A stretch of DNA of 64,000 bases, from assembly GCF_030384885.1 (NCBI RefSeq), contig NZ_CP128613.1. One strand, 5' to 3'. This stretch comes from Escherichia coli (GTDB lineage Bacteria; Pseudomonadota; Gammaproteobacteria; Enterobacterales; Enterobacteriaceae). The translations under genes were made by a program, and so were the position numbers. The notes below the pieces were generated by a model that had not been told where the DNA came from, made no database searches, and worked only from the letters and a program-made list of their open reading frames with translations. Within the stretch, counting starts at the first letter, position 1, and each line of letters begins with the position of its first letter. This document shows positions 31,869 to 34,987 of the stretch, piece after piece.

Positions 31869-33847
<1,979 letters not shown>

Positions 33848-33849
<2 letters not shown>

Positions 33850-34987
33850 GTCAGAGCCCCTCGATCTCAATCAGTTAGCGCAAAAAATTAAACAGTGGGG
33901 GCTGGAACTGGGCTTTCAGCAGGTAGGTATTACCGATACCGATCTCAGCGCGTCCGAGCCCAAACTGCAAGCATGGCTGGACAAACAATACCACGGCGAA
34001 ATGGACTGGATGGCGCGTCACGGTATGCTGCGCGCCCGCCCCCATGAGTTATTGCCCGGTACGCTGCGCGTCATCAGCGTGCGGATGAATTACCTTCCTG
34101 CTAACGCCGCATTTGCCAGCACGCTGAAAAACCCCAAACTCGGCTATGTAAGTCGTTATGCGTTGGGCCGTGACTATCACAAACTTCTGCGCAACCGACT
34201 CAAAAAGCTGGGCGAGATGATTCAGCAACATTGTGTTTCGCTGAATTTTAGACCGTTTGTCGATTCTGCGCCTATTCTCGAGCGCCCGTTAGCTGAAAAA
34301 GCAGGTCTTGGCTGGACAGGTAAGCACTCACTTATCCTCAATCGCGAGGCCGGTTCGTTCTTCTTTTTAGGTGAATTACTGGTCGATATTCCGCTGCCCG
34401 TGGATCAACCGGTCGAGGAAGGATGCGGTAAATGCGTGGCCTGTATGACGATTTGCCCGACCGGCGCCATCGTCGAGCCATATACCGTCGATGCTCGCCG
34501 CTGTATCTCTTATCTCACCATTGAACTGGAAGGGGCGATCCCGGAAGAGCTGCGTCCATTGATGGGAAACCGTATTTACGGTTGCGATGACTGCCAGCTT
34601 ATCTGCCCGTGGAATCGCTATTCGCAACTCACTAAAGAAGACGATTTCAGCCCGCGCAAACCACTACACGCACCGGAACTCATTGAGTTATTCGCCTGGA
34701 GTGAAGAGACGTTTTTAAAAGTCACGGAAGGTTCGGCGATTCGCCGTATAGGTCACCTGCGTTGGCTGCGTAATATCGCCGTGGCATTAGGCAATGCCCC
34801 CTGGGATAAAACGATTTTGACAGCGCTGGAAAGTCGTAAAGGTGAGCACCCACTTCTTGATGAGCACATAGCGTGGGCGATTGCGCAGCAAATCGAGAGG
34901 CGAAATGCGTGCGTCGTAGAGGTACAACTACCGAAAAAACAGCGTCTGGTTCGGGTGATTGAAAAAGGGTTACCGCGTGACGCCTGA
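33848..34987 (+). CDS. queG: Epoxyqueuosine reductase (4Fe-4S, cobalamin-dependent)
   Basis: 379 aa from [18 protein letters not shown]...; ferredoxin-like Cys clusters. Confidence 0.93.

What the first reader, a model, noticed from the sequence alone, without database searches (positions are those of the whole stretch)
33847..33850. Divergent nnr and queG start codons share the palindrome CATG
If Nnr starts at MTDHTMKK (giving the 515 aa I recall), its ATG occupies 33847-33849 on the minus strand while the queG ATG occupies 33848-33850 on the plus strand. The two divergent genes would then overlap head-to-head by 2 nt, each gene's promoter and RBS lying inside the other's coding sequence. 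That would imply transcriptional interference or tightly constrained regulation.
Basis: seen in the sequence. Interest (0 to 1): 0.3.

Follow-up and report, generated by a model that had tools for sequence, protein, structure and literature searches.

The report
Shared CATG start of nnr/queG
Two E. coli genes that point away from each other really do begin on the same four bases (CATG), and each carries the other's expression signals inside its own coding sequence. This arrangement is conserved across Enterobacterales, but it is already in the reference annotation and in published lists of overlapping transcripts.

Summary
CATG lies at 33847-33850. The queG ATG is 33848-33850 (+) and the nnr ATG is 33849-33847 (-), a 2-nt head-to-head overlap. 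RefSeq annotates it this way in the identical strain, in DH1 and in K-12 MG1655.

Comparative evidence supports both starts:
- The nnr ATG sits in the same CATG in 31 Enterobacterales species.
- Eleven of them have no other start codon within 25 codons downstream.
- It has a good Shine-Dalgarno (GAGGGG, -7.2 kcal/mol), whereas the downstream ATG at 33834 does not (-3.2).

The queG promoter is a conserved extended -10 (TGGTATACT, 33808-33816) made of nnr codons 12-14. The nnr Shine-Dalgarno is made of queG codons 4-5. A distal nnr promoter (-10 at 34250-34245) lies in queG codons 133-135. Synonymous sites are most conserved exactly at these points.

Published K-12 data give a queG transcription start 24 nt upstream of its ATG and an nnr start 388 nt upstream of its ATG. 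They also report a ~413-bp double-stranded RNA processed by RNase III, and list queG-nnr among 16 divergent "excludons".

Direct mapping of the protein N-termini and any regulatory consequence remain untested.

The parts
33847..33850 (.). Palindrome CATG holding both start codons (2-nt overlap at 33848-33849)
   Evidence: Read directly. Annotated this way. Conserved in 31 Enterobacterales species.
32302..33849 (-). nnr (yjeF) CDS, 515 aa, NAD(P)HX epimerase/dehydratase
   Evidence: ORF. Pfam YjeF_N 40-199 and Carb_kinase 258-496. RefSeq annotation.
33848..34987 (+). queG (yjeS) CDS, 379 aa, epoxyqueuosine reductase
   Evidence: ORF. Pfam match. The N-terminus aligns with the start of B. subtilis QueG 5d08. 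Annotation.
33808..33816 (+). queG promoter, extended -10 TGGTATACT, made of nnr codons 12-14 (AGT ATA CCA)
   Evidence: TGnTAnnnT lies upstream of queG in 63 of 78 gammaproteobacterial loci, against 3.4% of control windows. nnr codons 12-14 show 100% synonymous identity. The published delta-PqueG deletion primer removes exactly this stretch.
33824..33847 (+). queG 5' leader (24 nt), antisense to nnr codons 1-9; U-rich, with only a GG at -8/-7 as SD
   Evidence: Conway minus-strand promoter at 4392114 (U00096.2), 24 nt upstream of the queG ATG, as quoted in the supplement of PMC7373196. The position predicted from the -10 is 33823. SD duplex only -2.2 kcal/mol. The leader is less structured than shuffles, z +1.33.
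33857..33862 (-). nnr Shine-Dalgarno GAGGGG, 7 nt before the nnr ATG, made of queG codons 4-5 (CCC CTC)
   Evidence: Duplex with the anti-SD is -7.2 kcal/mol, against a background mean of -2.15 and a 5th percentile of -6.2. queG codons 5, 6 and 8 show 0.99-1.00 synonymous identity.
33832..33834 (-). Alternative in-frame nnr ATG (Met6)
   Evidence: SD only -3.2 kcal/mol. A start-capable codon occupies this position in 14 of 31 species.
34245..34250 (-). Distal nnr promoter -10 TAAAAT, inside queG codons 133-135 (includes the rare AGA Arg codon)
   Evidence: Conway plus-strand promoter at 4391701 (U00096.2) maps to window 34237, 388 nt upstream of the nnr ATG. GGTCTAAAATTCAG is invariant in 17 Enterobacteriaceae loci. 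It lies within the second-longest mismatch-free run against K-12.
33850..34237 (-). nnr 5' leader (~388 nt), antisense to queG codons 1-130
   Evidence: Coordinates from Conway, from Lybecker (dsRNA MS-212, 4391717-4392100) and from p19 cluster S-361 (4391754-4392109), all.
33824..34237 (.). Region transcribed on both strands (~413 bp), the source of RNase III-processed dsRNA in K-12
   Evidence: including a small-RNA duplex CAUGACGGACCAUACAAUGAAG that spans the CATG. queG-nnr is listed as a divergent excludon.

Best explanation
nnr and queG are a genuine head-to-head overlapping gene pair, and their start codons share CATG. The two genes are read from different mRNAs, so the overlap causes no ribosome conflict. 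Its effects are at the DNA and RNA level.

queG is transcribed from an extended -10 promoter (TGGTATACT) built from nnr codons 12-14. This gives a 24-nt, U-rich, weakly structured leader with almost no SD.

nnr is translated from the first ATG using a GAGGGG SD built from queG codons 4-5. In E. coli it is transcribed mainly from a promoter about 388 nt upstream, inside queG, and probably also by read-through from glyVXY/yjeV.

The two mRNAs are therefore complementary over about 413 nt, which includes both ribosome-binding sites. In K-12 they form dsRNA that RNase III cuts. RNA polymerases from the nnr side must also run through the queG promoter.

The likely outcome is that transcription of the nnr-tsaE-amiB... 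unit dampens the weakly expressed queG, as in an excludon. The dual use of the sequence freezes synonymous sites in both genes.

What is shown: the anatomy, the conservation, the constraint, and (for K-12, from the literature) the transcription starts and the dsRNA. What is inferred: the direction and size of any regulatory effect, and the native protein N-termini.
For: Sequence and annotation.

nnr start:
- ATG at the CATG in 31 species.
- It is the only start candidate in L013, L018, L021, L024 and L029.
- No ATG/GTG/TTG within 25 codons downstream in 11 species.
- SD -7.2 kcal/mol, against -3.2 for Met6 and +1.3 for the upstream TTG.

queG start:
- The N-terminus aligns with the start of B. 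subtilis QueG.
- The upstream GTG at 33803 lies before the -10 element.
- The first downstream Met is around residue 52.

Promoter:
- TGnTAnnnT found in 63/78 loci, against 3.4% of controls, at a fixed -40 in Enterobacterales.
- It is kept upstream of queG in Pectobacteriaceae, where a ~146-bp duplication has separated the genes. There nnr's own copy has lost it.

Constraint:
- The best synonymous-conservation windows of each gene lie in its first codons. queG codons 1-8 score 0.81 against 0.48 gene-wide. nnr codons 2-4 and 12-14 score about 1.0 against 0.46 gene-wide.
- The longest mismatch-free runs between this strain and K-12 are 33796-33950 and 34164-34302, amid 4.7% divergence.

Literature:
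- p19 dsRNA cluster S-361, Lybecker MS-212 and the Conway promoters at 4391701/4392114.
- ExcludonFinder Table 1.
- The delta-PqueG construct.
Against: - No direct start-site data (Ribo-RET, Onc112, TetRP, N-terminomics) could be retrieved for either gene.
- Met6, or a GTG/TTG at that position, exists in 14 of 31 species. In one metagenome-assembled genome (L020) a 1-nt insertion puts the first ATG out of frame, so the Met6 equivalent must serve. The five-residue extension is therefore dispensable, and conservation of ATGGTCCGTCATG may owe more to the queG leader than to Nnr.
- Some 5' synonymous constraint is a general property of genes.
- The distal nnr -10 has no recognisable -35. It is not found by the consensus scan and degenerates outside Enterobacteriaceae.
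- The transcription data are for K-12, not this strain.
- No measurement shows that either gene's expression changes the other's.
Confidence: 0.8

Rival explanations
1. Nnr actually initiates at Met6 (ATG at 33834). The genes would then not overlap and would be separated by 13 nt. The first ATG would be a by-product of the C that precedes the queG ATG.
For: ATG, GTG or TTG occupies position 6 in 14 of 31 species. L020 has the first ATG out of frame and must use the Met6 equivalent. C at -1 of queG persists even where nnr is not adjacent. No experimental N-terminus was found.
Against: Eleven species have no start-capable codon within 25 codons downstream of ATG1, and five have ATG1 as the only candidate. 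The SD for Met6 is weak, -3.2 against -7.2 kcal/mol. The first ATG is in frame in 31 of 32 Enterobacterales loci where nnr directly abuts queG, across a variable and once length-changed (+12 nt in L008) N-terminal stretch.
Confidence: 0.08
2. Both nnr ATGs are used in E. coli, giving 515-aa and 510-aa isoforms. The overlap is real but only part of Nnr synthesis depends on it.
For: Two in-frame ATGs lie 15 nt apart. A GGA sits 7 nt before Met6. Start-capable codons recur at position 6 in the Escherichia, Citrobacter and Enterobacter group.
Against: Position 6 is not conserved beyond that group. There is no isoform evidence. Nothing suggests the five extra residues, which lie outside the YjeF_N domain (40-199), have a separate role.
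Confidence: 0.1
3. The overlap is genuine but functionally neutral. It would be a product of genome compaction, with dsRNA formation as a harmless by-product and no regulatory coupling.
For: Short or zero nnr-queG spacers (about 0-60 nt) occur widely in gammaproteobacteria. Pectobacteriaceae separated the genes and Morganellaceae lost the adjacency. The nnr::frt-kan and delta-PqueG strains showed no phenotype in the assays of PMC10950094.
Against: The exact CATG arrangement persists in 31 species from at least five families. queG-nnr dsRNA ranks in the top 20 protein-coding clusters. The pair is detected as an excludon in at least 50% of 58 transcriptomes. None of this proves a function.
Confidence: 0.3

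Closest known systems
Divergent (5'-overlapping) excludons of E. coli MG1655, as catalogued by ExcludonFinder (PMC12288877) and seen as p19-captured or antibody-captured dsRNA (PMC7373196), e.g. rsd-nudC and asd-yhgN
   Same: Neighbouring genes on opposite strands whose mRNAs overlap at their 5' ends and yield RNase III-processed dsRNA. queG-nnr is itself on these lists.
   Different: In most listed pairs only the UTRs, or a UTR and part of a CDS, overlap, and the mean intergenic distance is 95 nt. Here the intergenic distance is -2 nt, so both start codons, both ribosome-binding sites and one promoter lie in coding sequence.
Listeria monocytogenes excludon (mogR / flagellar operon)
   Same: A long 5' leader of one transcription unit runs antisense through the divergent neighbour, which allows mutual exclusion.
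   Different: In Listeria the reciprocal expression effect is demonstrated. Here it is only inferred. The genes here have no known opposing functions.
Noncontiguous operons (S. aureus menE-menC/ytkD type)
   Same: queG is the only opposite-strand gene inside a co-directional run (orn, glyVXY, yjeV, nnr, tsaE, amiB). ExcludonFinder lists yjeV-queG-nnr as one of three such operons in E. coli.
   Different: Co-transcription of yjeV and nnr across queG was not examined here. A separate internal nnr promoter also exists.
Short head-to-head gene overlaps in prokaryotes (Lillo and Krakauer 2007, PMC2174442)
   Same: It belongs to the rare divergent class: 331 of 14,958 overlaps in 58 genomes, of which only 57 are under 5 nt.
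   Different: Many annotated divergent overlaps are suspected start-site mispredictions. This one is backed by conservation across an order.

Membership tests
Head-to-head overlapping gene pair | Two real protein-coding genes on opposite strands | tested here: met
   Pfam domains, PDB homologues and full-length conservation in 31 species.
Head-to-head overlapping gene pair | The true translation starts overlap | tested here: inconclusive
   Comparative and SD evidence strongly favours both annotated starts. No direct start-site or N-terminal data could be obtained.
Divergent excludon | Transcripts of the two genes overlap at their 5' ends | not testable with these tools
   Published for K-12: Conway starts at 4391701(+) and 4392114(-), a 413-nt overlap, and ExcludonFinder detection in at least 50% of 58 samples. 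Supported here only by the conserved promoter elements and by the 155-nt junction being identical to K-12.
Divergent excludon | dsRNA is formed and processed by RNase III | not testable with these tools
   Published: p19 cluster S-361 (5,635 RPM, top 20) and Lybecker dsRNA MS-212.
Divergent excludon | Expression of one gene lowers expression of the other | not tested
   No data found. This is inferred from the anatomy only.
Extended -10 sigma-70 promoter (for queG) | A TGn motif directly upstream of a -10 hexamer with A2 and T6, at the right distance from the transcription start | tested here: met
   TGGTATACT at 33808-33816. The predicted start is 33823 and the published one maps to 33824. 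Promoter activity itself was not assayed.

The most novel reading that the evidence does not exclude
The CATG junction may be an order-wide, dual-coded regulatory module. Under this reading, codon choice in both genes is dictated by the partner's promoter, SD and leader. Examples are the rare codons ATA in nnr codon 13 and AGA in queG codon 135. Antisense pairing across both ribosome-binding sites, together with polymerase traffic, would then make queG expression inversely dependent on transcription of the glyVXY-datA-yjeV-nnr-tsaE-amiB-mutL-miaA-hfq strand. That would link queuosine maturation to growth-rate-dependent or cell-cycle-dependent read-through transcription. The Pectobacteriaceae duplication would be a natural uncoupling experiment.
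Probability: 0.25. Interest if true: 0.45.

Novelty: already known. Interest (0 to 1): 0.22.

Why it matters
Divergent start-to-start overlaps are the rarest kind of gene overlap and are often annotation errors. This one is real and old, so it is a clean example of one DNA stretch carrying two coding frames plus a promoter and a ribosome-binding site.

There are practical consequences:
- "Silent" recoding of the first ~15 codons of nnr, or of codons 1-12 and ~130-135 of queG, will alter the neighbour's expression.
- Knock-outs or insertions in one gene, such as the nnr::frt-kan marker used in datA studies, may disturb the other.

The finding does not open a new question, because the annotation, the transcription starts, the dsRNA and the excludon call are all published.

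Tried and rejected
- **Start-site data sets.** I looked for nnr/yjeF and queG/yjeS in several. The Ribo-RET preprint has no supplements held. TRAINSPOTTER, the Salmonella riboproteogenomics paper and TetRP gave no occurrences.
- **TSS tables.** Conway 2014 has no supplements held. Thomason 2015 is not held. Cappable-seq and SMRT-Cappable-seq gave no coordinate or gene hits, possibly because the stored files are truncated. The Conway and Lybecker coordinates were recovered only second-hand, from the supplement of PMC7373196.
- **Consensus promoter/terminator scan** of 33400-34300 found nothing. Its rule requires a -35 hexamer, which neither promoter has.
- **Rfam** gave no hit in 33600-34400 at E<=1, so there is no known riboswitch or leader in the nnr 5' UTR.
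- **Folding.** The MFE structure pairs the nnr SD (GGGGCU) with an upstream AGCCCC, but the energy is no better than shuffles (z 0.07). Species with CCT at queG codon 4 show no compensating change, so I did not pursue it.
- **Longer ORFs.** The TTG-extended Nnr (522 aa, 33870) has no SD (+1.3 kcal/mol) and is absent in 14 of 31 species, so I rejected it. The GTG-extended QueG (394 aa, 33803) lies upstream of the -10 and was also rejected.
- **Antisense ORFs in the nnr leader** (34231-34049, 60 aa; 34045-33875, 56 aa). I treated these as shadow ORFs of queG's codon frame and did not test them.
- **A proximal nnr promoter** between 33865 and 33900. I could not identify a credible -10 by eye. It is not excluded.
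- **PDB.** No E. coli Nnr or QueG structure exists that would document an expressed N-terminus.

Full report
**What is there.** The + strand reads ...TATGGTCCGT CATG TCAGAGCCC..., with C33847 A33848 T33849 G33850.
- Read forward from 33848 it gives [12 protein letters not shown]..., a 379-aa protein with the QueG_DUF1730 and Fer4_16 domains.
- Read on the minus strand from 33849 it gives [15 protein letters not shown]..., a 515-aa protein with the YjeF_N and Carb_kinase domains.
- The window is E. coli. It is 100% identical over 701 nt to strain 2013C-4282 and about 94.6% identical to K-12 strains.
- RefSeq annotates nnr and queG with this same 2-nt head-to-head overlap in 2013C-4282, in DH1 and in MG1655 (queG 4392928..4394067 minus, nnr 4394066..4395613 plus).
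- The overlap is therefore part of the reference annotation.

**Are the annotated starts the real ones?** I could retrieve no direct start-site or N-terminal data, so the case rests on comparison. A scan of one genome per species returned 80 queG loci.

For nnr:
- In 31 Enterobacterales species from at least five families, tblastn places Nnr residue 1 on the minus strand one base inside the queG ATG, which is the same CATG. The genera are Escherichia, Citrobacter, Enterobacter, Kluyvera, Cedecea, Siccibacter, Mangrovibacter, Pantoea, Serratia, Yersinia, Rahnella, Hafnia, Budvicia, Acerihabitans and Edwardsiella. Nnr identity in this set falls to 53%.
- In 11 of these species there is no ATG, GTG or TTG within 25 codons downstream.
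- In 5 of them (L013, L018, L021, L024, L029) this ATG is the only candidate in the open frame.
- A start-capable codon at position 6 exists in only 14 of the 31.
- In the window, the first ATG is preceded at 7 nt by GAGGGG, whose duplex with the anti-SD is -7.2 kcal/mol. The random 20-mer mean is -2.15 and the 5th percentile is -6.2. Met6 scores -3.2 and the upstream TTG at 33870 scores +1.3.

One caution applies. In a metagenome-assembled genome (L020) a 1-nt insertion puts the first ATG out of frame, so the Met6 equivalent must be used. The five-residue extension is therefore dispensable.

For queG:
- The N-terminus aligns with the start of the B. subtilis QueG crystal construct.
- The first downstream Met is around residue 52.
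- The upstream GTG at 33803 lies before the promoter described next.

**Expression signals inside the partner gene.** About 40 nt upstream of the queG ATG, every Enterobacterales locus has TGGTATACT or TG(G/A/C)TAAACT, which is an extended -10 element.
- The pattern TGnTAnnnT occurs upstream of queG in 63 of 78 gammaproteobacterial loci, against 3.4% of control windows.
- In the window it is 33808-33816, and it is the reverse complement of nnr codons 12-14 (AGT ATA CCA, Ser-Ile-Pro).
- It predicts a transcription start at 33823.
- The nnr SD (33857-33862) is the reverse complement of queG codons 4-5 (CCC CTC).

**Synonymous-site analysis** of 32 sequences shows the dual use.

| Gene | Gene-wide codon identity among same-residue pairs | Peak values |
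|---|---|---|
| nnr | 0.46 | codons 2-4: 1.00, 1.00, 0.92; codons 12-14: 1.00 each |
| queG | 0.48 | codons 1-8 pooled: 0.81; codons 5, 6, 8: 0.99-1.00 |

- In each gene the best-scoring windows of the whole gene lie in its first codons: the top 6 in queG and the top 8 in nnr.
- Within E. coli, this strain and K-12 differ at 125 of 2,686 positions across the two genes.
- The longest mismatch-free run is 33796-33950 (155 nt, centred on the CATG). The second-longest is 34164-34302.

**The nnr promoter.** That second run contains GGTCTAAAATTCAG, with -10 TAAAAT at 34250-34245 on the minus strand.
- It is invariant in 17 Enterobacteriaceae loci and uses the rare AGA codon of queG Arg135.
- It degenerates in other families and has no recognisable -35, so the consensus scan does not find it.

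**Published transcript data for K-12.**
- The supplement of Huang et al. 2020 (PMC7373196) quotes Conway et al.'s promoters at 4391701 (+) and 4392114 (-) in U00096.2 coordinates.
- In those coordinates the nnr ATG is 4392089. I checked this against a small RNA, CAUGACGGACCAUACAAUGAAG, listed at 4392087-4392109.
- The nnr start is therefore 388 nt upstream of its ATG (window 34237). The queG start is 24 nt upstream of its ATG (window 33824), within 1 nt of the position predicted from the -10.
- The two mRNAs overlap by about 413 nt.
- The same region is Lybecker's dsRNA MS-212 (4391717-4392100) and p19 cluster S-361. S-361 is one of the 20 most abundant protein-coding dsRNA clusters and is classed as a 5' overlap.
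- ExcludonFinder (PMC12288877) lists queG-nnr among only 16 divergent excludons of MG1655 present in at least 50% of 58 transcriptomes. It lists yjeV-queG as a convergent excludon and yjeV-queG-nnr as one of three noncontiguous operons.
- Katayama's group built a delta-PqueG strain. Its deletion primer removes TAAGTATACCACACACCGTCTGGTACGCCGA, which is the -10 inside nnr.

**How it most likely works.** The genes are translated from different mRNAs, so the shared CATG creates no ribosome conflict. The consequences are threefold.
- *Sequence constraint.* One DNA stretch serves two reading frames, a promoter, an SD and a leader. This is shown here.
- *Polymerase traffic.* Polymerases from the nnr side must pass through the queG promoter. 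This is inferred.
- *RNA pairing.* The mRNAs pair over a region that includes both ribosome-binding sites, and RNase III cleaves the duplex. The dsRNA is published; its effect is inferred.

queG has a near-background SD (-2.2 kcal/mol) and a U-rich leader that folds less well than shuffles (z +1.33). This fits a weakly expressed gene likely to be on the losing side. No known RNA family lies in the nnr leader.

**Evolution.** Short or zero nnr-queG spacers (about 0-60 nt) occur in Alteromonadales, Vibrionales and Aeromonadales, and a possible CATG junction occurs in Tolumonas. The compact divergent pair therefore predates the Enterobacterales.

In Pectobacteriaceae a duplication of about 146 bp separated the genes.
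- The copy next to queG is a decayed nnr 5' end (MMGHRNKQDVLMLPY then a stop) that still carries the -10 and the CATG.
- The working copy of nnr has lost the -10 (Asp-Leu-Pro-Asp instead of Ser-Leu-Pro).
- This natural uncoupling supports the view that the AGT-(A/T)TA-CCA codons are held by the promoter, not by the protein.

**Context and verdict.** Divergent overlaps are the rarest class: 331 of 14,958 overlaps in 58 genomes, with 57 under 5 nt (PMC2174442). However, the overlap, the promoter positions, the dsRNA and the excludon call are all already public. What this analysis adds is:
- the order-wide conservation;
- the precise embedded signals and their synonymous-site footprint;
- the Pectobacteriaceae uncoupling.

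Still open are direct proof of the two N-termini and any measured regulatory effect.

Noticed in passing
window 34970-35023 (-) and 34990-35250: The 17-aa small ORF yjeV (MRFYFYSQAVDESGVTR) overlaps the queG 3' end tail-to-tail by 18 nt. DnaA-box matches lie at 35001-35009 and 35163-35171. This is the datA DnaA-inactivating locus, between glyVXY and queG.
   Followed up: partly
window 35257-35676 (-): Three tRNA-Gly(GCC) genes are present. The spacer between the second and third is 157 nt here, against 35 nt in K-12. This strain therefore carries an extra ~121 bp inside the glyVXY cluster.
   Followed up: no
window 32302-32330 (-): The nnr 3' end and the tsaE 5' end overlap by 29 nt on the same strand. 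This is a second, co-directional overlap involving nnr.
   Followed up: no
window 33875-34231 (-): Two mechanical ORFs (60 aa from ATG 34231, only 6 nt after the nnr transcription start; 56 aa from ATG 34045, ending 23 nt before the nnr ATG) lie in the nnr leader, antisense to queG. They are probably shadow ORFs. The second one stops just upstream of the nnr SD.
   Followed up: no
L028, L031, L033, L036 (Pectobacterium, Dickeya, Brenneria), about 25-35 nt upstream of nnr: A motif CTTGCTAA(C/G/T)TT is kept upstream of the relocated nnr. It resembles TTGCGCTAACT upstream of nnr in E. coli, which is the antisense of queG codons 10-12. This could be a further nnr expression signal.
   Followed up: no
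L020 2486-2503: A soil metagenome-assembled genome has a 1-nt insertion between the -10 and the CATG. This shifts nnr to the Met6-equivalent start while ATGGTCCGTCATG stays intact. It could be an assembly error or a genuine loss of the overlap.
   Followed up: partly
window 32302-34987 versus K-12: This region differs from K-12 by 4.7%, and only 13 of 5,425 E. coli genomes are at least 99% identical over 701 nt. That is high for within-species comparison and suggests a divergent lineage or an imported segment.
   Followed up: no
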